Below, piece by piece: positions 1,473 to 31,060 of a stretch of 59,990 nt of DNA (position 1 is the first letter of the stretch; each line of letters starts with the position of its first letter). This stretch comes from Acidimicrobiia bacterium. Its GTDB lineage: Bacteria > Actinomycetota > Acidimicrobiia > UBA2766. A program made the position numbers and the translations under genes. The stretch covers positions 1 to 59,990 of the forward strand of contig JAIBAC010000003.1 of NCBI GenBank assembly GCA_019695375.1, written 5' to 3'. The notes beneath the pieces were generated by a model, which worked only from the letters and a program-made list of their open reading frames with translations, did no database searches and had not been told where the DNA came from.

Positions 1473-2360
1473 TCAAATGACCGTCCCCGCGACGCTGTCG
1501 CGCAGCTCTCCTTCGGGCCCGAACAGCTCCTCACGCCACATGACGACGAGCGCCTCGTTGTCGCGGTCGTCGGGGTGGAAGCCGGGCTTCTCGGCCGCCT
1601 TGAGGTCGTTCCAGACCCTGCGGCTGAAGACGGTGTGGCGGACGAACCTGGCGAGGCTGCGTGGCAGGACGCCGGGGCGCAGGCTCGCGGGATCGGTGAG
1701 GCTCGACAGGATCGTGCCCGCGAAGAGACCGCCCATGAAGCCGTAGCGGACGACCTTCATCGTGAGGATCCGCACGCGTTCGCTGCCGCCGACGGCGCGG
1801 TAGACGTCGAAGGCGACGGCCTTGTGCTCGGACTCCTCGAGCGCATGCCAGAGGAAGAGGCTGCGGATGGCGGGGTGTCCGAGGCTCGCACGCGCATCGG
1901 GGTCGGAGAGGAGACGCTCGGCGAGGGTGGCGGTCAGGTGCTCGAGGGCGACGGTCTCGGCGAGGTTGGACTGCGGCGACGCGACCCGCTCGCGCAGCCG
2001 CAGGAGGCGCCCGGTGGCGCGCTCGACGCGCTTGGTCACGTATCCGAGCTCGGCGAGGCGGTCGTTGAGGACGCGGTGCTCGCGGCCGTGGGTGGTCTCC
2101 TGGCCGATGAAACCCGCGACCTGGCGGCGCAGCACCGGATCGGTGATCTGGTCGCGGTAGTGGCGCACGGTGCGGATGAAGAACTCCTCGCCCTCGGGGA
2201 ACATCGCCGAGAGCGCTGCGCCCATGTGGCTCAGGAGGAGGTCGCCGTCGGCGGCGAAGTGCCTGGGCACCTCGGCGAGGGCGTCCTCGAAGCCGACGCG
2301 GCGGGCCTGGACCTTGCGGTCGCTGCTCGACTGCCGCGTCCCGGTCCCGGTGGTCGCCAT
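1473..2360 (-). CDS. Predicted metal-dependent hydrolase (COG3687-like)
   Basis: LSAMFPEGEEFF, QETTHGREH, LEHLTA, WHALEESEHKAVAFDVY motifs. Confidence 0.85.
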   Translation of the reverse strand: MATTGTGTRQSSSDRKVQARRVGFEDALAEVPRHFAADGDLLLSHMGAALSAMFPEGEEFFIRTVRHYRDQITDPVLRRQVAGFIGQETTHGREHRVLNDRLAELGYVTKRVERATGRLLRLRERVASPQSNLAETVALEHLTATLAERLLSDPDARASLGHPAIRSLFLWHALEESEHKAVAFDVYRAVGGSERVRILTMKVVRYGFMGGLFAGTILSSLTDPASLRPGVLPRSLARFVRHTVFSRRVWNDLKAAEKPGFHPDDRDNEALVVMWREELFGPEGELRDSVAGTVI

Positions 2361-2405
2361 GGCGATAAAGTAACGGACGCTCTTTTTGTTGTCAACGGGT
2401 CCATA

Positions 2406-2510
2406 TCTCGGCGCGGACAGAGACGCGAACCCCCGTCTCGGCGCGGGCCGGGCATCATGGTGCCGCCTGCGCGCCGAGACGTGTGGGGGCGTCCACGTGC
2501 GCGCCGAGAC
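2406..2510. repeat. Nested-palindrome REP-like element, family B
   Basis: TCTCGGCGCG at 2406 and 2436, inverse CGCGCCGAGA at 2470 and 2500, central GGCATC-AT-GGTGCC hairpin; intergenic downstream of katG. Confidence 0.75.
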
Positions 2511-2535
2511 TGCGTCGGAGCGGACGTGCGTGCGC

Positions 2536-5731
<3,196 letters not shown>

Positions 5732-8630: not shown

Positions 8631-9698
8631 ATGAGCCTGCAGACGACCTGGTTCATCCTCATCACCGTCCTCTGGTCGGGCTTCTTCCTCCTCGAGGGGT
8701 TCGACTTCGGTGTCGGCATGCTCACCCCGTTCGTGGGCCGCGACCTCGACGAGCGCCGCCTTCTCAAGGGGACGACCGGTCCGTTCTGGGACGGGAACGA
8801 GGTGTGGTTGATAGTCGCGGGCGGCGCCACCTTCGCCGCCTTCCCGGACTGGTACGCGACCATGTTCTCCGCGTTCTACGTCCCGCTGATCCTCGTGCTC
8901 GCCGCCCTCATCGTGCGAGCCACCGGTACCGAGTACCGCGACCGCCGCGACAGCGAGCGCTGGCAGACCGCCTGGGACTGGGTGATCGCGGTGGCGTGCC
9001 TTCTCGCTCCGCTGCTTCTGGGCATCGCGCTCGGTGGTCTCCTCGGCGGAGTCCCGATCGACTCCGACATGGAGTTCACCGGCGGCTTCGTCGATCTCGT
9101 CCAGCCCTATGCACTTGTCACCGGCGCGACGTTCCTGGCGCTCAGCCTCTTGCAGGGCGCCCTGTTCCTGCGCCTGCGAATCACCGACGACCTCCGCGCC
9201 CGCGCCCAGCGCAGCGCCCGCACCATCGCCGTCGTCGCGGTCGTCGTGTTGGCCGTACAGCTCGTCTGGACGACCGTGATCGAACCCGGCGACACGGTCA
9301 TCCCCGGGGCGTGGGCGTGGCTGGCGATCACCTTCGCGGTCGCGGCGGCGCTCGTCGCCGGCGAGGACCGCCACGAGGGCTGGGCATTCGCATCCAGCTC
9401 TGCCGCCGTGGTGTTCACGATGGCGAACCTGTTCGCCACCCTGTACCCGAACACGATGGTCTCGGCGACGTCGACGGCGAACAACATCACGGTCTACGAC
9501 AGCTCGAGCCCGTACACGCTCAGGCTCATGACCATCGTGGCCGCCGTCATGGTCCCCGTCGTGCTCGCCTACACCGCCTGGAACTACTGGGTCTACCGCC
9601 AGCGGATCCACCCCCGTACCGCACCGACCCCCACCGACGACGCCGACGCCGCGCCACCACCGGCGCCGGCGTCGGGACTGAGCGCCGAGTCGCATTAG
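8631..9698 (+). CDS. cydB: Cytochrome bd ubiquinol oxidase subunit II
   Basis: LEGFDFGVGML, GPFWDGNEVWL..GGATFAAFP; true start ATG 8631 within track ORF 7353..9698. Confidence 0.95.
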   Translation: MSLQTTWFILITVLWSGFFLLEGFDFGVGMLTPFVGRDLDERRLLKGTTGPFWDGNEVWLIVAGGATFAAFPDWYATMFSAFYVPLILVLAALIVRATGTEYRDRRDSERWQTAWDWVIAVACLLAPLLLGIALGGLLGGVPIDSDMEFTGGFVDLVQPYALVTGATFLALSLLQGALFLRLRITDDLRARAQRSARTIAVVAVVVLAVQLVWTTVIEPGDTVIPGAWAWLAITFAVAAALVAGEDRHEGWAFASSSAAVVFTMANLFATLYPNTMVSATSTANNITVYDSSSPYTLRLMTIVAAVMVPVVLAYTAWNYWVYRQRIHPRTAPTPTDDADAAPPPAPASGLSAESH

Positions 9699-21816: not shown

Positions 21817-24582
<2,766 letters not shown>

Positions 24583-24592
24583 GCGGGTCACG

Positions 24593-25039
24593 CTAGAGGC
24601 GGCCCGCGAGCGGTGCTTCTCGATTCCTGATCGGTCGCGTCACCTGCTTCGCGACGCACGCCGGCAGACCCGCCGTCGAACGCGACGCCTCGCGCCGGTA
24701 GACGCTCGGGGCCATACCGACGAGCTCGGTGAAGCGGGTGCTGAACGTGCCCAGCGACGCGCACCCCACCGCGAAGCAGACCTCGGTAACGCTGAGGTCG
24801 CCGCGGCGCAGCAACGCCATCGCACGTTCGATGCGCCGCGTCATCAGGTACGAGTACGGCGACTCGCCGTAGGCGAGGCGGAACTGGCGGCTCAGGTGCC
24901 CGGCGGACATGTGCGCCCCGCGTGCGAGCGCCTCGACGTCGAGCGGCTGCGCGTATTCGCGGTCGATGCGGTCGCGCACGCGCCGCAGCCACACGAGGTC
25001 GCGCAGGCGCTGGTCTCCGGCGGCGGCTCCGTCGCCCAT
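24593..25039 (-). CDS. AraC-type HTH regulator (DNA-binding domain only)
   Basis: LARGAHMSAGHLSRQF, SVTEVCFAVGC.SLGTFS. Confidence 0.9.
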   Translation of the reverse strand: MGDGAAAGDQRLRDLVWLRRVRDRIDREYAQPLDVEALARGAHMSAGHLSRQFRLAYGESPYSYLMTRRIERAMALLRRGDLSVTEVCFAVGCASLGTFSTRFTELVGMAPSVYRREASRSTAGLPACVAKQVTRPIRNREAPLAGRL

Positions 25040-26629: not shown

Positions 26630-27448
26630 ATGTCCACGCCTCCCCTCCATGGCCGCGTCGCCGTCGTCTCCGGCGCCAACCACGGGATCGGCGCCGCCAC
26701 CGCGGAAGCACTCGCCCGCCTCGGTGCCGACGTCGCGATCACATACCTCGCGTACACGCCCGCCGACCACGATCCCGACCGTCCAGCCGCGTACCGCACC
26801 CAGCGGGAACAGGGCCCCGATGCCGCGGTCGCCGCGGTACGGGACGCAGGGCGACGCGTGCACGTGGTCGAGGCCGACCTCGCCGACGCAGACACGCCGC
26901 GGATCGTGTTCGCCGAGGCCGAAGCGGCGCTCGGGCCGGTTTCGATCCTGATCAACAACGCGAGCGCGTGGCGCAAGGACACGTTCGCGCCCGACCGCGA
27001 CGATCCGCTCGGCCGCCGCAACGAGGCGGTCGGTGACGACACAGCCACGCCCCAGCTCCTCGTTGACGCCCGCGGCGGGGCCCTGATGATCGCCCGGCTG
27101 GCTGAATCGGTGCGGCGCCACCGCATCGGTTGGGGCCGCGTCGTGAGCCTCACCTCGGGAGGGAACATGGGATTCCCGGGTCAGGTGTCCTACGGCGCTG
27201 CAAAGGCAGCATTGGAGAACTACACGATGAGCGCCTCGGTCGAGCTCGCCGGCGACGGGATCACCGCCAACGTCGTGTACCCGCCCGTCACCGACACCGG
27301 CTGGATCACCGCCGAGGTCCGCGACTTCGTGACGAGCAGTTCCGACCACGTCCACATCGCCGCACCATCAGAGGTGGCGGAGGTGATCGGTTGGCTCTGC
27401 ACCGACGCCGCCCGCCTCGTCACCGGCAACGTCATCCGTCTCCGGTAG
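26630..27448 (+). CDS. Short-chain dehydrogenase/reductase
   Basis: SGANHGIG, INNA, YGAAK. Confidence 0.88.
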   Translation: MSTPPLHGRVAVVSGANHGIGAATAEALARLGADVAITYLAYTPADHDPDRPAAYRTQREQGPDAAVAAVRDAGRRVHVVEADLADADTPRIVFAEAEAALGPVSILINNASAWRKDTFAPDRDDPLGRRNEAVGDDTATPQLLVDARGGALMIARLAESVRRHRIGWGRVVSLTSGGNMGFPGQVSYGAAKAALENYTMSASVELAGDGITANVVYPPVTDTGWITAEVRDFVTSSSDHVHIAAPSEVAEVIGWLCTDAARLVTGNVIRLR

Positions 27449-28025
27449 CGGCAGTGGTGCGGATGCCGGTCTCCGGGTTCGTCACCTGGGAGCGGCGGGT
27501 CGCGGCCGCCTTCAGGGTCGCTGCAGCTGCCCTGTCGGCTCCCCAGAGCACCGTGAAGAGCAAAGACGGGACGCAAATCCTCGTCACAGCGACGAATGCG
27601 GCGGTCAGACCGAGGACGACGGCGAGCACCACGCCCAACGTCGTGAGCCCCGACACCATGGCGACTGCCGCACCACCGAGGAAGACCGTTCCGATCGCGC
27701 AGCCGAGCCTCTTGGCGGCCCGATTCGGCGGCATCTGGAGCCTGCCCCGATCCGCCGCGATCCGGTTGTAGACCCACTCGAATGGGTGGTTGCGTGCGAA
27801 CGTCCCGACCAGCGCGGTCACGGCGAAGACGCCCAGCAGCAGCGGCGAGGCCAGCGCGGCACCGGCCAGGCCGCCCACAGCGCACACTGCGGGACCTATG
27901 CGCTGTGCTCCGGTCACAGTGTCGGCGCAGGCTGCGTCGGCGCCGGTCCAGCCTTGGATGCGGGTGCGGCGCTGGGACCACGTCAGTGCGGGATCCCGCA
28001 GGAGAGCGATGGCGTCGTGGAGCAT
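27432..28025 (-). CDS. DUF4395-like membrane protein
   Basis: NHPFEWVY, PNRAAKRLGCAIG, C-terminal RICVPS; GAGGA RBS. Confidence 0.7.
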   Translation of the reverse strand: MLHDAIALLRDPALTWSQRRTRIQGWTGADAACADTVTGAQRIGPAVCAVGGLAGAALASPLLLGVFAVTALVGTFARNHPFEWVYNRIAADRGRLQMPPNRAAKRLGCAIGTVFLGGAAVAMVSGLTTLGVVLAVVLGLTAAFVAVTRICVPSLLFTVLWGADRAAAATLKAAATRRSQVTNPETGIRTTAATGDG

Positions 28026-28033
28026 CGTCGTCC

Positions 28034-28174
28034 TCAGAACACGGTCGCGGCCCCGCCGGCGACGACCTCGACGAGGTTGGCGGCGGTGATGCGGCACCAA
28101 GCTGGCACGCCCTCGCGGGCAGCGGGGTCGTCGGTTCGCACCTCGAGCACGCGGTCGGGGCTGCGCCCGGTCAT
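28034..28174 (-). CDS. Small TusA/SirA-like protein lacking the N-terminal CPxP region
   Basis: MTGRSPDRVLEVRTDDPAAREGVPAWCRITAANLVEVVAGGAATVF; ATGA overlap with upstream methyltransferase stop. Confidence 0.6.
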   Translation of the reverse strand: MTGRSPDRVLEVRTDDPAAREGVPAWCRITAANLVEVVAGGAATVF

Positions 28175-28950
28175 GGCCTGACAGCCCTGAACGTGTGGGC
28201 GTACACGTCGAAGGCCCGCGCGCGTGGCTCGCCCGCGGCACCGGCGAAGGTGTCGGTGCGGCGTCCGATGGAAAGGCGCTCGAAGCCTGCCGCACCTATA
28301 AGGTCCGCCCACTCGTCGACCGACAGCCCGCCTGCGATGCAGTCGGTCCACAGCTCGATGTCGCACTTCGCGGCTTCGGGCACTTCGCCGCCCACGGCGA
28401 TGTCGGCGAACTGCAGGATGCCGCCTCGGCGCAGCACCCGGGCAGCCTCGCCGAGGACTCCGGCCTTGTCGGCGACGAGGTTGAGCACACCGTTGCTGAT
28501 CACGACGTCGGCCCACCCGTCGTCGACGGGCACCTGTTCGAGGATCCCCTCGCGGAACTCGACGTTGTCGAGACCCAGCGCTGCGGCGACGCGGCGCGAG
28601 CGCTCGAGCATCGCGGGCGTCATGTCGACGCCGACGATCCGACCGCCGGCTCCGACGAGAGTCGCAGCGACGACGCAGTCGAAACCGCCGCCGGAGCCGA
28701 AGTCGACCACCCTCGCCCCCGCCGGTATCGACCCTGCCGCGAAGGGGTTGTCGACGCCCGCGAAGCTGGCGACGGCCTCCTCGGGCAGGGCGTCGAGGAC
28801 GTCCACGGGATAGCCGAGCAGCTCCGCGAGCTTGCGGCCGGTGTGGAAGTGGAACCTGCCCTCGGGATTGGTGGCCACCTCGGTGTATTTGTCCCGCACC
28901 TCGGCCCGCAGTGCGTCCGGGTCTACACCGGACACGGTGTTCGTCCCCAT
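28171..28950 (-). CDS. ArsM-like class I SAM methyltransferase
   Basis: DFGSGGGFD, GVDMT, ISNGVLNL, WTDCIAGG. Confidence 0.85.
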   Translation of the reverse strand: MGTNTVSGVDPDALRAEVRDKYTEVATNPEGRFHFHTGRKLAELLGYPVDVLDALPEEAVASFAGVDNPFAAGSIPAGARVVDFGSGGGFDCVVAATLVGAGGRIVGVDMTPAMLERSRRVAAALGLDNVEFREGILEQVPVDDGWADVVISNGVLNLVADKAGVLGEAARVLRRGGILQFADIAVGGEVPEAAKCDIELWTDCIAGGLSVDEWADLIGAAGFERLSIGRRTDTFAGAAGEPRARAFDVYAHTFRAVRP

Positions 28951-28965
28951 GAGCACCCCCTATTC

Positions 28966-28995
28966 CAAGTGTTCAAGCATTTGTCTGAACACTTG
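28966..28995. promoter_or_regulatory. Inverted repeat, probable ArsR-family operator
   Basis: CAAGTGTTCA-N10-TGAACACTTG between divergent genes. Confidence 0.7.
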
Positions 28996-29013
28996 AAGTG
29001 TCGGGTGCGGGAC

Positions 29014-29054
29014 CTAGCTTGTCAAGAGATCTTTTGAATTTTCGACAAGACTAG
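29014..29054. promoter_or_regulatory. Second imperfect inverted repeat in divergent promoter
   Basis: CTAG-CTTGTC...GACAAG-A-CTAG enclosing TCAA-N8-TTGA. Confidence 0.5.
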
Positions 29055-29094
29055 GTAGGGTCGAGGCCACGCAGCGGCACCCGGACAGAACACG

Positions 29095-29775
29095 ATGGCC
29101 GACAGGACTGCCAAAGACGCCCTCTACGACCGCCTCGCCGAGGTCGCCAAGGCACTCGGGCACGGCCGCCGCGCCGAGCTGGTGGACGTGCTGGCCCAGG
29201 GTGAGCGCTCGGTCGAGGTTCTCGCCGGCGAGATCGGCCAGACCACCGCCAACACCTCACACCACCTACAGGTGCTGGCGCGTGCGGGACTGGTGAGCAC
29301 TCGCCGCGATGGCAACCACGTCTTCTACCGGCTGCCGAGCGAGCGCGTCGCCGAGTTGTGGTCGGCGATGCGTGACGTCGCTGCGGCCCACGTCGCCGGA
29401 ATCGGCGACGAAGTGGTCGCCTATCTCGGACCCCGCGACGACATCCCCACCATCTCGCGCGACGAGCTCGCCACGGCCCTCGAGTCTGGACCAGGAGTCC
29501 TGGTCCTCGACGTGAGGCCACAGGCGGAGTACGAGGCGGGCCACATCCCCGGCGCCGTCCCCGTCGACCCGATGCACCTCGACGACCAGTTGAGCCGGAT
29601 CACCGACGACGCCGACGTGGTCGCCTACTGCCGTGGCCCGTACTGTGCGTTCGCGCACGACGCCGTCAGGGCACTCGGATCCCGTGGAATCACTGCGCGC
29701 CGTCTCGAGGACGGTTTCCCCGAGTGGCGGCGCGCCGGCCTACCCGTCGAGATCACCGCCGCGCCAGCCGGATAG
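29095..29775 (+). CDS. ArsR/SmtB regulator fused to rhodanese domain
   Basis: KALGHGRRAELVDVLAQGERSVE HTH; LDVRP..EYEAGHIPGA and YCRGPYC. Confidence 0.92.
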   Translation: MADRTAKDALYDRLAEVAKALGHGRRAELVDVLAQGERSVEVLAGEIGQTTANTSHHLQVLARAGLVSTRRDGNHVFYRLPSERVAELWSAMRDVAAAHVAGIGDEVVAYLGPRDDIPTISRDELATALESGPGVLVLDVRPQAEYEAGHIPGAVPVDPMHLDDQLSRITDDADVVAYCRGPYCAFAHDAVRALGSRGITARRLEDGFPEWRRAGLPVEITAAPAG

Positions 29776-29893
29776 TCGGCCCACTAGGAGAGACACCTGA
29801 CTGGAGGTCTGTGGTTTTGTGAGAGCCAGTTTGACATGCCGATTTCTGTCGTAACTAGGCGTTTCTGTCACAGGTGGTTTGTATCGTAGTGCC

Positions 29894-31060
29894 ATGGCCG
29901 AGTACGCCGAACTGCAGACACTCTTCGACACCCTCACACCAGCGCAGAAGACCGACCTCTACAACCAGATCGAAGGCCGCGAGTCATTCCTGCAAGCCTG
30001 CAAAGCCACCCTCCTCGCACCCATAGCGTCCACCGAGGAACACATCGCCGACGGCGCCCGCACCATCGCCGACTGGATCGCCACAACCGGCCGCCACCAC
30101 AGCAACCACGCCCACCAGATCGCCGACGTCGCCGAAGCCATGACCGAACTCCCCGCCATCTGGGCCCGATTCGCCGACGGCGAGCTGTCCTTCGACCAGA
30201 CCTACGAGCTCTCACGATTCGTCACCACCGAAACCGACACCCACTGGGCCGAACACGCACCCGCACTCTCAGCCAACGCCCTACGACGCCACGCCACCAA
30301 ACACCGGCCCAAAGACGACGACCCCGACCCCACCCCCAAACCCAACCGCGTCCACATCGAACACGACCACGACGGCCGCGGCGGACACATCTCAGCCCAC
30401 TTCGACACCACCTCCCTCGCCCGCATCGAAGCCGCCCTCACCCGCCAAGCAGACCGCTACAGCCCCGACCCCGACACCGCCGAACCCATCCCGCGACGCG
30501 AACGTCTCGCCCGAGCGCTCCACGACCTCGTCACTGCCGCCAAACCCTCCACATGGGCCGACCGCGCCACCATGGTCGTCCACACCACCCTCGACACCCT
30601 CGCCCGCCTCGAAGACACCGACGCCACCGTCGACCTGCCCTTCCCCGCCTGGATCAGCGCCGAACAAGCACGACACCTCGCCAACACCGCCCGGCTCGAA
30701 GTCAGCCTCGACGACCCCTGCGGACGCCCGATCGGCATCGGCCGCACCTCACGCAACTGGCCCCCACACGTGTACCGCCGCATCGCCGAACGCGATGGGA
30801 CATGCCGCTGGCCGGGGTGCAACAACACCATCGGCCTCCAGGTCCACCACGAACCACCCCTCCCCGAGGGCCCGACCGACACCGAACACGGCATCCTGCT
30901 CTGTGTCCACCACCACGACAACCGCACCACCAAAGGCTTCCGCATCAGCGGCAACCCCGAACACCAACTCCACTTCTACAGACCCGACGGCACCCCCATC
31001 GGCACCACCCGACCACCCCTACACCCCGACAACCAACACCTCTACGACAACCCCGACTAG
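29894..31060 (+). CDS. DUF222/13E12-repeat HNH endonuclease
   Basis: RDGTCRWPGC, QVHH, LLCVHHH; strongly C/A-rich coding strand typical of the family. Confidence 0.85.
   Translation: MAEYAELQTLFDTLTPAQKTDLYNQIEGRESFLQACKATLLAPIASTEEHIADGARTIADWIATTGRHHSNHAHQIADVAEAMTELPAIWARFADGELSFDQTYELSRFVTTETDTHWAEHAPALSANALRRHATKHRPKDDDPDPTPKPNRVHIEHDHDGRGGHISAHFDTTSLARIEAALTRQADRYSPDPDTAEPIPRRERLARALHDLVTAAKPSTWADRATMVVHTTLDTLARLEDTDATVDLPFPAWISAEQARHLANTARLEVSLDDPCGRPIGIGRTSRNWPPHVYRRIAERDGTCRWPGCNNTIGLQVHHEPPLPEGPTDTEHGILLCVHHHDNRTTKGFRISGNPEHQLHFYRPDGTPIGTTRPPLHPDNQHLYDNPD

What the first reader, a model, noticed from the sequence alone, without database searches (positions are those of the whole stretch)
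27432..29775. Putative sulfur/chalcogen-handling module: ArsR-rhodanese, atypical ArsM-like methyltransferase, mini-TusA, DUF4395
Seen: a divergent ArsR-rhodanese (YCRGPYC) faces an operon of methyltransferase, a coupled 46-aa TusA-like ORF and a DUF4395-like membrane protein. The methyltransferase has AGVDNP and SNGV where ArsM has GCGNP and SNCV, keeping only the last Cys (WTDCIAGG). Established: TusA and rhodanese carry persulfide sulfur, and ArsM needs multiple Cys. Inference: a persulfide-responsive sulfur/selenium methylation or detox system, not arsenic methylation. I know of no description of this combination.
Basis: partly seen in the sequence, partly recalled or inferred. Interest (0 to 1): 0.68.

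Follow-up and report, generated by a model that had tools for sequence, protein, structure and literature searches.

The report
Reduced sulfur-stress operon with ArsM-like methyltransferase
A wastewater actinobacterium carries a trimmed copy of a widespread, uncharacterised gene module: a rhodanese-fused repressor controlling a methyltransferase that looks like an arsenic methylase but lacks two of its three arsenic-binding cysteines and sits with sulfur-carrier genes, so it probably methylates reactive sulfur or selenium.

Summary

Three corrections:
- The 46-aa "mini-TusA" is a deletion scar. Close relatives carry MTase-TusA(90 aa)-DsrE(122 aa)-DUF4395. Here two in-frame deletions removed the TusA Cys loop and nearly all of DsrE. 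Independent assemblies and RNA contigs show the same sequence.
- The retained Cys206 is selenocysteine (TGA plus a SECIS-like hairpin) in 58 of 88 non-canonical relatives. The Cys forms are one clade nested among Sec forms. Each type has its own second Cys: C198 here, C161 in Sec forms.
- Linkage is conserved but modular. The ArsR-rhodanese gene lies near the MTase in 30/87 loci and DsrE in 19/87. The regulator's commonest neighbour is an MBL-fold/double-rhodanese (CstB/Blh-like) protein. DUF4395 also occurs directly under the regulator. No ars-gene motifs were found.

Two TCAAR-N6-YTTGA operator sites are conserved in the divergent promoter.

Best reading (about 0.5): a reactive-sulfur/selenium response module whose MTase methylates a chalcogen held on Cys206, not arsenite. 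The chemistry is untested. The Sec-containing "arsenite methyltransferase" family is already listed in selenoprotein surveys; I found no description of its sulfur-relay context.

The parts
29095..29775 (+). Regulator: ArsR/SmtB winged-helix domain (no Cys) fused to a C-terminal rhodanese domain. The active-site loop C-R-G-P-Y-C holds the protein's only two Cys.
   Evidence: Pfam HTH_5 and Rhodanese; NCBIfam HTH_metalloreg 74.6 bits over cut-off 55; BigR equivalog 53.9 bits, below 155. Orthologues occur in 68/301 genomes of the phylum, and AYCRG[PS]YC is kept in the five aligned examples (CRGSYC in one).
28951..29094 (.). Divergent control region. Operator site A TCAAGAGATCTTTTGA is at 29022-29037 and overlaps a putative -35 TTGACA (29020-25, minus strand). 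Operator site B TCAGACAAATGCTTGA (minus strand) is at 28973-28988. A longer inverted repeat spans 28953-29008.
   Evidence: Most divergent ArsR-Rhd/MTase intergenic regions of relatives carry two TCAAR-N6-YTTGA-like sites. Site A is the only match in the window, against 0.01 expected by chance. The genome has 3 matches in all, and the other two look intragenic. Inverted repeats. The promoter hexamers are my reading; the consensus scan found none.
28171..28956 (-). ArsM-like class I SAM methyltransferase (261 aa from GTG 28956; probably 259 aa from ATG 28950). It is the Cys form of a Sec/Cys family. Cys206 is codon 28339-28341 and Cys198 is codon 28363-28365.
   Evidence: Pfam Methyltransf_31 99 bits. 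NCBIfam ArsM subfamily PRK11873 206 bits, below the 263 cut-off; best hit is the ArsM/AhpD selenoprotein family at 221 bits. PDB ArsM matches at E 6e-29. Relatives have TGA at Cys206. Tree.
28034..28174 (-). 46-codon remnant ORF. It consists of the tusA 5' end, the tusA middle part and the dsrE 3' end, fused in frame by a 78-nt and a ~414-nt deletion. Its ATG overlaps the MTase stop codon (ATGA), and its stop lies 8 nt before the DUF4395 start.
   Evidence: Protein and DNA comparison with L013, L014, L021 and L023. Pfam TusA score is below cut-off and covers only part of the profile. Contigs from 4 independent studies are identical here. RNA contigs span it.
27432..28025 (-). DUF4395 helical membrane protein (197 aa) with three invariant Cys (C48, C109, C151) and NHPFE / PxNRAAKRLGC / ICVPS motifs.
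   Evidence: Pfam DUF4395 47.7 bits. 82 homologues, alignment of 35. AlphaFold model pLDDT 93 with no PDB fold match at E<=0.001. The gene is also found directly under ArsR-Rhd control in L129 and L131.

Best explanation
The locus is a reduced copy of a conserved, modular 'ArsR-rhodanese regulon' that most likely responds to reactive sulfur (possibly selenium) species.

Shown:
- The regulator gene is divergent from an operon MTase - remnant - DUF4395, with two conserved TCAAR-N6-YTTGA sites in between.
- Close relatives have MTase-TusA-DsrE-DUF4395. In this lineage two in-frame deletions removed both carrier active sites.
- The MTase is the Cys form of a widespread selenoprotein branch of the ArsM family. 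That branch lacks two of the three As(III) ligands.

Inferred:
- Sulfane sulfur loads the rhodanese Cys. The CX4C pair then forms a persulfide or tri-/polysulfide bridge, and the repressor leaves the operators.
- The MTase holds a sulfane S or Se atom on Cys206 as a persulfide or selenosulfide. In complete modules TusA/DsrE deliver it; here it would come from small persulfides or other rhodaneses.
- SAM methylates the terminal chalcogen. Cys198 then resolves the adduct, releasing methanethiol or methylselenol and leaving a disulfide to be reduced.
- DUF4395, often next to an MFS transporter elsewhere, handles a sulfur/selenium species or the product at the membrane.
- As(III) is not the substrate.
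For: - Anatomy and motifs.
- Conserved subfamily motifs.
- Sec at the retained Cys in 58 loci (57 TGA, 1 TAG), followed by a conserved hairpin with a compensatory G-C/U-A pair.
- SelA is present in exactly the three same-class genomes that have the TGA form, and absent from this genome.
- selA/selB/selD lie next to the gene in some Proteobacteria.
- One Cys clade is nested among Sec forms.
- Class-specific partner Cys.
- Full module in relatives, and an MTase-TusA fusion protein (P0062).
- Neighbour counts: ArsR-Rhd 30/87, DsrE (all CxxC type) 19/87, MBL+2xRhodanese about 16-17/87, RsrA-like anti-sigma with ECF sigma 4-7 loci.
- The regulator's commonest neighbour is the CstB/Blh-like protein, roughly 19/29 loci.
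- Canonical three-Cys ArsM genes of the same class sit with a plain ArsR or none, never with ArsR-Rhd.
- No LMW-ArsC, Acr3 or ArsB motifs within 3.5 kb in 87 loci.
- Operators.
- The locus is intact and represented in sludge metatranscriptomes.
Against: - There is no biochemical evidence for any member, and none was found in the literature searched.
- Both classes keep a two-ligand site (C198/C206, C161/U206). In canonical ArsM two Cys are enough to methylate methylarsenite (my knowledge of CmArsM), so a metalloid substrate is not excluded.
- A rhodanese CX4C pair could bind As(III), selenite or tellurite as readily as sulfane sulfur.
- The known bacterial H2S/MeSH methyltransferases (MddA, MddH, MddM1/2) belong to other families (PMC12904073).
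- In this window the carriers are deleted, so the proposed delivery route does not exist here.
- RNA contigs may include contaminating DNA.
- The ars-gene screen was motif-based only.
Confidence: 0.5

Rival explanations
1. It is still a metalloid methyltransferase system. The enzyme methylates a trivalent metalloid (methylarsenite, As(III)-thiol conjugates, Sb, or Te/Se oxyanion-derived species) bound between Cys206 and Cys198 (Sec206/Cys161 in relatives). The rhodanese CX4C pair of the regulator senses that metalloid.
For: ArsM structures are the best PDB matches (E 6e-29) and the retained residue aligns with an As ligand. A second conserved Cys exists in each class. The family is catalogued as 'arsenite methyltransferase' (PMC13188914; JGI names). 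An ArsR-family regulator is present.
Against: Two of the three As(III) ligands are replaced in the whole subfamily. The NCBIfam ArsM score is below cut-off. No ars-gene motifs were found nearby in 87 loci. The partners are sulfur carriers and a CstB/Blh-like enzyme. The regulator's ArsR domain has no Cys at all, so none of the usual metal sites.
Confidence: 0.17
2. It is a thiol/redox-stress enzyme with another substrate. The Sec/Cys is a redox or covalent-catalysis residue, and the MTase methylates an organic thiol, an electrophile or a protein/cofactor. The sulfur-carrier neighbours reflect a general thiol-stress regulon, not substrate delivery.
For: Some loci place the MTase behind an ECF sigma and an RsrA-like anti-sigma factor. 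SRPBCC, glyoxalase-like and MFS genes recur nearby. Related NCBIfam families fuse the MTase to AhpD-like or other redox domains (PMC13188914).
Against: The MTase-TusA fusion and the tight ATGA coupling to TusA-DsrE in the closest relatives argue for direct hand-over of a carried atom. Adjacency to DsrE also holds in Proteobacteria.
Confidence: 0.2
3. In this genome the module is decaying and no longer has a function. The deletions that destroyed tusA and dsrE mark an operon on its way to loss.
For: Two deletions removed both carrier active sites. The same-genus genome G001 lacks the MTase. An HNH/DUF222 gene flanks the locus, and G+C dips to 0.676.
Against: The MTase, the regulator and DUF4395 are full length and keep all invariant family residues. 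Both deletions are in frame and preserve the ATGA overlap and the start context of DUF4395. MTase-DUF4395 without carriers also exists in L022 and L041. The same sequence occurs in runs of several studies listed as wastewater, sludge, invertebrate gut and marine metagenomes, and in RNA libraries.
Confidence: 0.1

Closest known systems
ArsM / AS3MT arsenite S-adenosylmethionine methyltransferases (CmArsM 4fr0, Chlamydomonas ArsM 5evj)
   Same: Same class I SAM-MTase fold family. Alignable over about 215 residues at E 6e-29 to 2e-22. Cys206 aligns with the last As(III)-binding Cys.
   Different: The other two As ligands are Val and Gly across the subfamily, and a family-specific second Cys (C198 or C161) is present instead. 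The score is below NCBIfam's ArsM cut-off. There is no ars-gene context; the context is sulfur carriers.
Sec-containing 'arsenite methyltransferase' selenoprotein family (motif UxxG; NF008823 and the fused forms NF041537, NF041536, NF047649; listed in PMC13188914 and PMC9312934)
   Same: Relatives at 55-62% identity have TGA exactly at Cys206 within W-T-x-U-I-A-G, followed by a conserved SECIS-like hairpin. The window protein scores best against these models.
   Different: The window protein is the Cys form, from a derived clade in a genome without SelA. The surveys list the family without a function or the sulfur-relay context.
Persulfide-responsive operons: S. aureus cst (CstR, CstA, CstB, SQR, TauE), Xylella/Agrobacterium BigR-Blh, Rhodobacter SqrR, E. 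coli YgaV-YgaP (from my knowledge; YgaV/SqrR/BigR also in PMC9774590 and PMC12423496)
   Same: A repressor of the ArsR type is combined with rhodanese, TusA/DsrE-type carriers and an MBL-fold/rhodanese enzyme. Divergent promoter with palindromic operators.
   Different: The sensor Cys are not in the ArsR domain as in BigR/SqrR; they lie in a fused rhodanese domain (BigR model 53.9 bits, below 155). The effectors include a SAM methyltransferase and DUF4395, which those systems lack. In this window there is no dioxygenase, SQR or carrier.
DsrE/TusA/rhodanese sulfur relays (Allochromatium DsrEFH/TusA, Metallosphaera DsrE3A-TusA, sHdr clusters)
   Same: Relatives encode a TusA-like protein with the conserved Cys loop and a DsrE-family protein with a CxxC site, translationally coupled.
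   Different: The relay ends at a methyltransferase, not at Dsr/Hdr oxidoreductases or tRNA thiolation. In the window both genes are deleted.
H2S/methanethiol S-methyltransferases MddA, MddH, MddM1, MddM2 (PMC11445057, PMC12904073)
   Same: SAM-dependent methylation of sulfide species as detoxification is established in Actinomycetota, and is induced by H2S and oxidative stress.
   Different: They are unrelated or only distantly related MTase families (UbiG/UbiE-type of about 205 aa, or membrane MddA). The sections of PMC12904073 that I read describe no catalytic Sec/Cys and no carrier proteins.

Membership tests
ArsM / AS3MT arsenite methyltransferase | Sequence membership: score above the curated cut-off of the ArsM subfamily model | tested here: not met
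   NF008823/PRK11873 scores 205.9 bits against a cut-off of 263. Homology itself is clear (PDB ArsM, E 6e-29).
ArsM / AS3MT arsenite methyltransferase | Three conserved As(III)-binding Cys (CmArsM C72, C174, C224) | tested here: not met
   The aligned residues are V68, G156 and C206. The same holds in the non-canonical loci examined, whereas 7 canonical ArsM genes of the same class have all three.
ArsM / AS3MT arsenite methyltransferase | As(III) methylation activity | not testable with these tools
   Needs an enzyme assay.
ArsM / AS3MT arsenite methyltransferase | Association with ars genes (arsR with metal-site Cys, arsC, acr3/arsB) | tested here: not met
   The motif screen found no LMW-ArsC, Acr3 or ArsB within 3.5 kb in 87 loci (a weak test). 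The regulator's ArsR domain has no Cys.
Sec/Cys 'arsenite methyltransferase' selenoprotein family (UxxG) | Sec or Cys at the UxxG position, with a SECIS element and Sec machinery in the Sec forms | tested here: met
   The window has C-I-A-G. 57 relatives have TGA there, followed by a conserved hairpin. SelA is present only in the TGA-bearing genomes tested.
TusA (PF01206) | Score above the gathering cut-off and the conserved Cys loop | tested here: not met
   The 46-aa ORF scores 26.4 bits against 28.6 and matches profile positions 28-59 only. The DAPG[IL]AC loop of the relatives is deleted. The 90-aa relatives pass (37 bits).
DsrE (PF02635) | DsrE domain with active-site Cys | tested here: not met
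   Only the last ~18 codons survive in the window. Relatives pass (52.1 bits; CxxC kept).
DUF4395 (PF14340) | Score above the gathering cut-off | tested here: met
   47.7 bits against 24.5. The family has no known function, and the literature holds no functional study.
ArsR/SmtB regulators | Winged-helix ArsR domain | tested here: met
   NF033788 scores 74.6 bits against 55; Pfam HTH_5 30.3 bits against 22.
BigR/SqrR persulfide sensors | Equivalog score, and the two sensor Cys inside the ArsR domain | tested here: not met
   NF040642 scores 53.9 bits against 155. There is no Cys in residues 1-180; the only Cys are in the rhodanese loop CRGPYC.
Rhodanese (PF00581) | Domain score and active-site Cys loop | tested here: met
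   54.4 bits against 22.2. The six-residue loop CRGPYC is present, and AYCRG[PS]YC is kept in the aligned orthologues. Sulfur-transfer activity was not testable.

The most novel reading that the evidence does not exclude
The Sec/Cys single-site branch of the 'ArsM' family is a carrier-fed chalcogen methyltransferase. It accepts a sulfane sulfur (or selenium) atom from TusA/DsrE/rhodanese onto Sec/Cys206, methylates it with SAM and releases methanethiol or methylselenol. This would be an undescribed enzymatic exit from the persulfide relay and a new effector class of reactive-sulfur regulons, with DUF4395 as its membrane partner and a rhodanese-fused ArsR as a new type of sulfane-sulfur sensor.
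Probability: 0.35. Interest if true: 0.8.

Novelty: new variant of a known kind. Interest (0 to 1): 0.5.

Why it matters
Genes of this branch are labelled "arsenite methyltransferase" in part of the public annotation seen here (JGI names). At least 575 species-representative genomes carry them, across Actinomycetota and Proteobacteria. If the branch acts on sulfur or selenium, surveys that count arsM-like genes as arsenic-methylation potential may be inflated, to the extent that they include it.

It would also add a new source of volatile methylated sulfur/selenium compounds, and a new way of disposing of persulfide sulfur, to the cst/BigR-type detoxification schemes. The Sec-to-Cys replacement with relocation of the partner Cys is a clean natural experiment on selenoenzyme mechanism.

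This particular window matters mainly as a reduced form. It shows that the MTase and DUF4395 are kept and transcribed after the TusA/DsrE carriers are lost.

Tried and rejected
- Assembly artefact as the cause of the short TusA ORF. Rejected: contigs from four independent studies are identical over 27700-28500.
- Selenocysteine in the regulator. The 'TGA inside' flags are only the genes' own stop codons.
- Selenocysteine in the DsrE partners. None; all have CxxC.
- Sec machinery in this genome. No SelA or SelD was found. One aragorn 'tRNA-SeC' call is probably false.
- Identity with the MddM1/MddM2/MddH H2S methyltransferases. Rejected: they are different families and sizes.
- Function of DUF4395 by fold. 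The model is confident (pLDDT 93), but no PDB match reached E<=0.001 and TM-scores were <=0.32.
- Iterative HMM searches for TusA and DUF4395 among six-frame ORFs drifted onto overlapping shadow ORFs. I discarded them and used only the DsrE, ArsR-Rhd and long MBL-Rhd counts.
- A wider regulon in this genome via the operator motif. The other two genome matches look intragenic.
- Literature on ArsR-rhodanese fusions, DUF4395, or a TusA/DsrE-coupled methyltransferase. Nothing found.
- The sigma-70 consensus scan found no promoter or terminator. The -35/-10 I give are read by eye.
- The careful tree search did not finish. The tree used is the quick IQ-TREE result.


Full report
**1. What is in the window**

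The window is a 70% G+C contig of an uncultured Acidimicrobiia-like genome (332 contigs, 91% complete).
- The plus-strand gene 29095-29775 encodes a 226-aa fusion of an ArsR/SmtB winged-helix domain and a rhodanese domain. NCBIfam HTH_metalloreg scores 74.6 bits against a cut-off of 55, and Pfam Rhodanese scores 54.4 bits. Its only two cysteines lie in the rhodanese loop YCRGPYC.
- The methyltransferase lies divergently on the minus strand at 28171-28956. Its likely start is the ATG at 28950, behind an AGGGGG Shine-Dalgarno.
- A 46-codon ORF follows at 28034-28174. Its ATG overlaps the MTase stop codon (ATGA).
- Eight bases after that ORF's stop comes a 197-aa DUF4395 protein, 27432-28025.

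**2. The methyltransferase**

It is clearly homologous to ArsM: solved ArsM structures match at E 6e-29 to 2e-22.
- GCGNP is GVDNP.
- SNCV is SNGV.
- WTDC206IAGG aligns with the last As(III)-binding Cys.

It stays below NCBIfam's cut-off for the ArsM subfamily (206 bits against 263). The substitutions are not decay. Among the 120 closest homologues (66-80% identity), FAGVDNP occurs in 114, SNGV in 106 and WTDCIAG in 117. A pattern scan of species-representative genomes found at least 575 loci of this type in Actinomycetota and in Alpha-, Beta-, Gamma- and Deltaproteobacteria.

**3. The retained Cys is selenocysteine in most relatives**

- Of 88 non-canonical loci that could be classified, 58 have an in-frame stop exactly at position 206. 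It is TGA in 57 and TAG in one.
- The TGA is followed by a conserved hairpin with a CGUGY loop and a compensatory G-C/U-A pair.
- Among seven genomes tested, SelA is present in exactly the three that carry the TGA form. It is absent from this genome, which also lacks SelD.
- In some Proteobacteria the gene lies next to selA, selB or selD.
- In a quick maximum-likelihood tree, seven canonical three-Cys ArsM genes form the outgroup, the Sec forms are paraphyletic, and the 29 Cys forms, including the window's, form one clade nested among actinobacterial Sec forms (SH-aLRT 87). This fits a single Sec-to-Cys replacement.
- Each class has its own second conserved Cys: C161 (SNGVINLC) in 55/58 Sec forms and C198 (CX7C with C206) in 28/30 Cys forms.

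"Only one Cys left" is therefore true of the ArsM triad, but the site probably still works as a thiol/selenol pair.

A Sec-containing "arsenite methyltransferase" with motif UxxG is already listed in selenoprotein surveys, without a tested function for this branch (PMC13188914, PMC9312934). Earlier notes of this scan describe Sec-type members in other genomes and raise the same doubt about arsenic. They are leads, not independent evidence.

**4. The "mini-TusA" is a deletion scar**

Relatives whose MTase is 72-79% identical carry ArsR-Rhd divergent from MTase - TusA-like (90 aa, ATGA-coupled, Cys loop DAPG[IL]AC) - DsrE (122 aa, WACG[AV]CT). In one of them DUF4395 (187 aa) follows.

The window's 46 residues read as:
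- TusA 1-10;
- then, after a gap of 26 residues that held the Cys loop, the TusA middle part LEVRTDDPAAREGVPAWCR;
- joined directly to the last ~18 residues of DsrE (ITAANLVEVVAGGAATVF against IVTAANLVEAVASGAATVAF).

At the DNA level this is a 78-nt deletion between TGCTCGA microhomologies and a ~414-nt deletion. Contigs from four independent studies are identical over 27700-28500 with no gaps, so this is not an assembly error. The genome has no other TusA-like or DsrE hit with these queries.

Sludge metatranscriptome contigs match perfectly across DUF4395, the remnant and the MTase 3' end, and across the regulator gene. That fits a transcribed polycistronic operon, although DNA carry-over cannot be excluded.

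**5. Linkage**

In 87 loci of the subfamily I found the following within 3.5 kb, as lower bounds because many contigs are short:
- the ArsR-rhodanese gene in 30 loci (13 Cys type, 17 Sec type);
- a DsrE-family gene in 19, all with a CxxC site;
- a ~460-aa MBL-fold protein with two rhodanese domains in about 16-17;
- an MFS transporter in 9;
- an ECF sigma factor in 7 and an RsrA-like zinc anti-sigma factor in 4;
- an SRPBCC protein in 4.

One homologue is a natural MTase-TusA fusion (P0062).

Starting from the regulator instead, orthologues occur in 68 of 301 sampled genomes of the phylum. Their commonest neighbour, in roughly 19 of 29 loci, is the MBL/double-rhodanese protein. The Sec-type MTase is sometimes inserted between the two. 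That protein has the domain layout I recall for CstB/Blh, but only weak family hits (GloB model 69 bits, Blh 33 bits).

DUF4395 of this subtype also appears directly under the regulator without any MTase (L129: ArsR-Rhd | DUF4395-MFS). It also lies divergent from ArsR-Rhd-MTase(Sec)-DsrE in L131. Canonical ArsM genes of the same class have a plain ArsR or none beside them. A motif screen found no LMW-ArsC, Acr3 or ArsB near any of the 87 loci.

The linkage is therefore real, modular and sulfur-flavoured.

**6. Control region**

Aligning the divergent intergenic regions of relatives shows two TCAAR-N6-YTTGA-like sites in most of them.
- Site A in the window is 29022-29037. It is the only match in 60 kb, against 0.01 expected by chance, and it overlaps a TTGACA that I read as the -35 of the MTase promoter.
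- Site B is 28973-28988 (TCAGAC-AAAT-GCTTGA).
- The other two matches in the whole genome look intragenic. In this organism the regulon is probably this locus alone.

**7. DUF4395**

Its 82 detectable homologues share three invariant Cys (C48, C109, C151) and the motifs NHPFE, PxNRAAKRLGC and ICVPS. The AlphaFold model is confident (pLDDT 93, all-helical), but it has no counterpart among solved structures. No paper assigns it a function.

**8. Interpretation**

The evidence fits a reactive-sulfur (or selenium) response module better than an arsenic one. The regulator's sensing residues can only be the rhodanese Cys pair. The partners are persulfide carriers and a CstB/Blh-like enzyme. The MTase has lost two of its three As ligands and keeps a Sec/Cys that selection treats as catalytic.

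The mechanism I think most likely is methylation of a chalcogen atom held covalently on residue 206, followed by resolution by the partner Cys.
- Shown: the anatomy, the deletions, the Sec/Cys relation, the linkage and the operators.
- Inferred: the ligand of the sensor, the substrate, the catalytic cycle and the role of DUF4395.

Known H2S/MeSH methyltransferases belong to other families (PMC12904073). I found no description of a carrier-coupled methyltransferase or of an ArsR-rhodanese sensor.

A two-ligand metalloid site remains a serious rival, as does a different thiol-stress substrate. Decay of the locus is the least likely reading, given intact, conserved and apparently transcribed genes.

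**9. Verdict**

The "mini-TusA" is a scar rather than a gene of its own. The window holds a reduced Cys-type member of a widespread module whose selenoprotein component is already catalogued. I rate it a new variant of a known kind, of moderate interest.

Noticed in passing
window 29879-31060: A 393-aa DUF222/HNH-type endonuclease gene lies directly downstream of the regulator gene, and local G+C dips (0.676 for 28-30 kb against about 0.71). The same-genus genome G001 lacks the MTase. The module may be an accessory, transferable piece.
   Followed up: no
window 21817-25039 and L017 9227-12476: The trio AraC-type regulator, glyoxalase/VOC protein and UvrA-like ABC ATPase also lies next to the ArsR-Rhd/MTase pair in a relative (L017/L018). 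The wider neighbourhood is therefore partly syntenic even though the module itself is arranged differently there (convergent, no DUF4395).
   Followed up: partly
own genome contig C67, about 2086-3480: The genome's only long MBL-fold/rhodanese (CstB-like) homologue is elsewhere. It is preceded by ATATACCCCCGGGGGTAT, a palindrome of the kind I recall for CsoR/CstR-type repressors. This organism may split its reactive-sulfur response between two regulators.
   Followed up: no
own genome (aragorn hit at 8809-8910 of an unrecorded contig): Aragorn calls one 102-nt tRNA-SeC (anticodon TCA) although no SelA or SelD was found. It is probably a false call or a relic.
   Followed up: partly
L076 7595-7684 (Geodermatophilus sp. 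MAG): The Sec position of the MTase reads TAG instead of TGA, while the SECIS-like hairpin is kept. It could be a sequencing error, a pseudogene or something odd in decoding.
   Followed up: no
L046, L051, L053 (Alphaproteobacteria MAGs): The Sec-type MTase is followed on the same strand by selD and by a GrdB/PrdB-like reductase fragment and a protein with no Pfam hit. This is a small 'selenium island', which keeps open a selenium rather than sulfur substrate.
   Followed up: partly
window 28953-29008: The inverted repeat around operator site B extends to 23-nt arms (78% complementary). The arm next to the gene includes the MTase Shine-Dalgarno (AGGGGG). This extension is absent from relatives. 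Whether it forms an RNA hairpin depends on the unknown transcription start.
   Followed up: partly
L131 3376-4149 and the gene calls: Public gene calls split Sec-type MTases into a ~201-aa product and a ~43-aa leftover at the TGA, so this branch is systematically truncated in protein databases.
   Followed up: partly
L005 (G014:C10): A deep-branching relative (42% identity) carries C161, C198 and C206 together with GVGYH in place of GVDNP. It is also divergent from an ArsR-rhodanese gene with the same operator type. It may be an intermediate form.
   Followed up: partly
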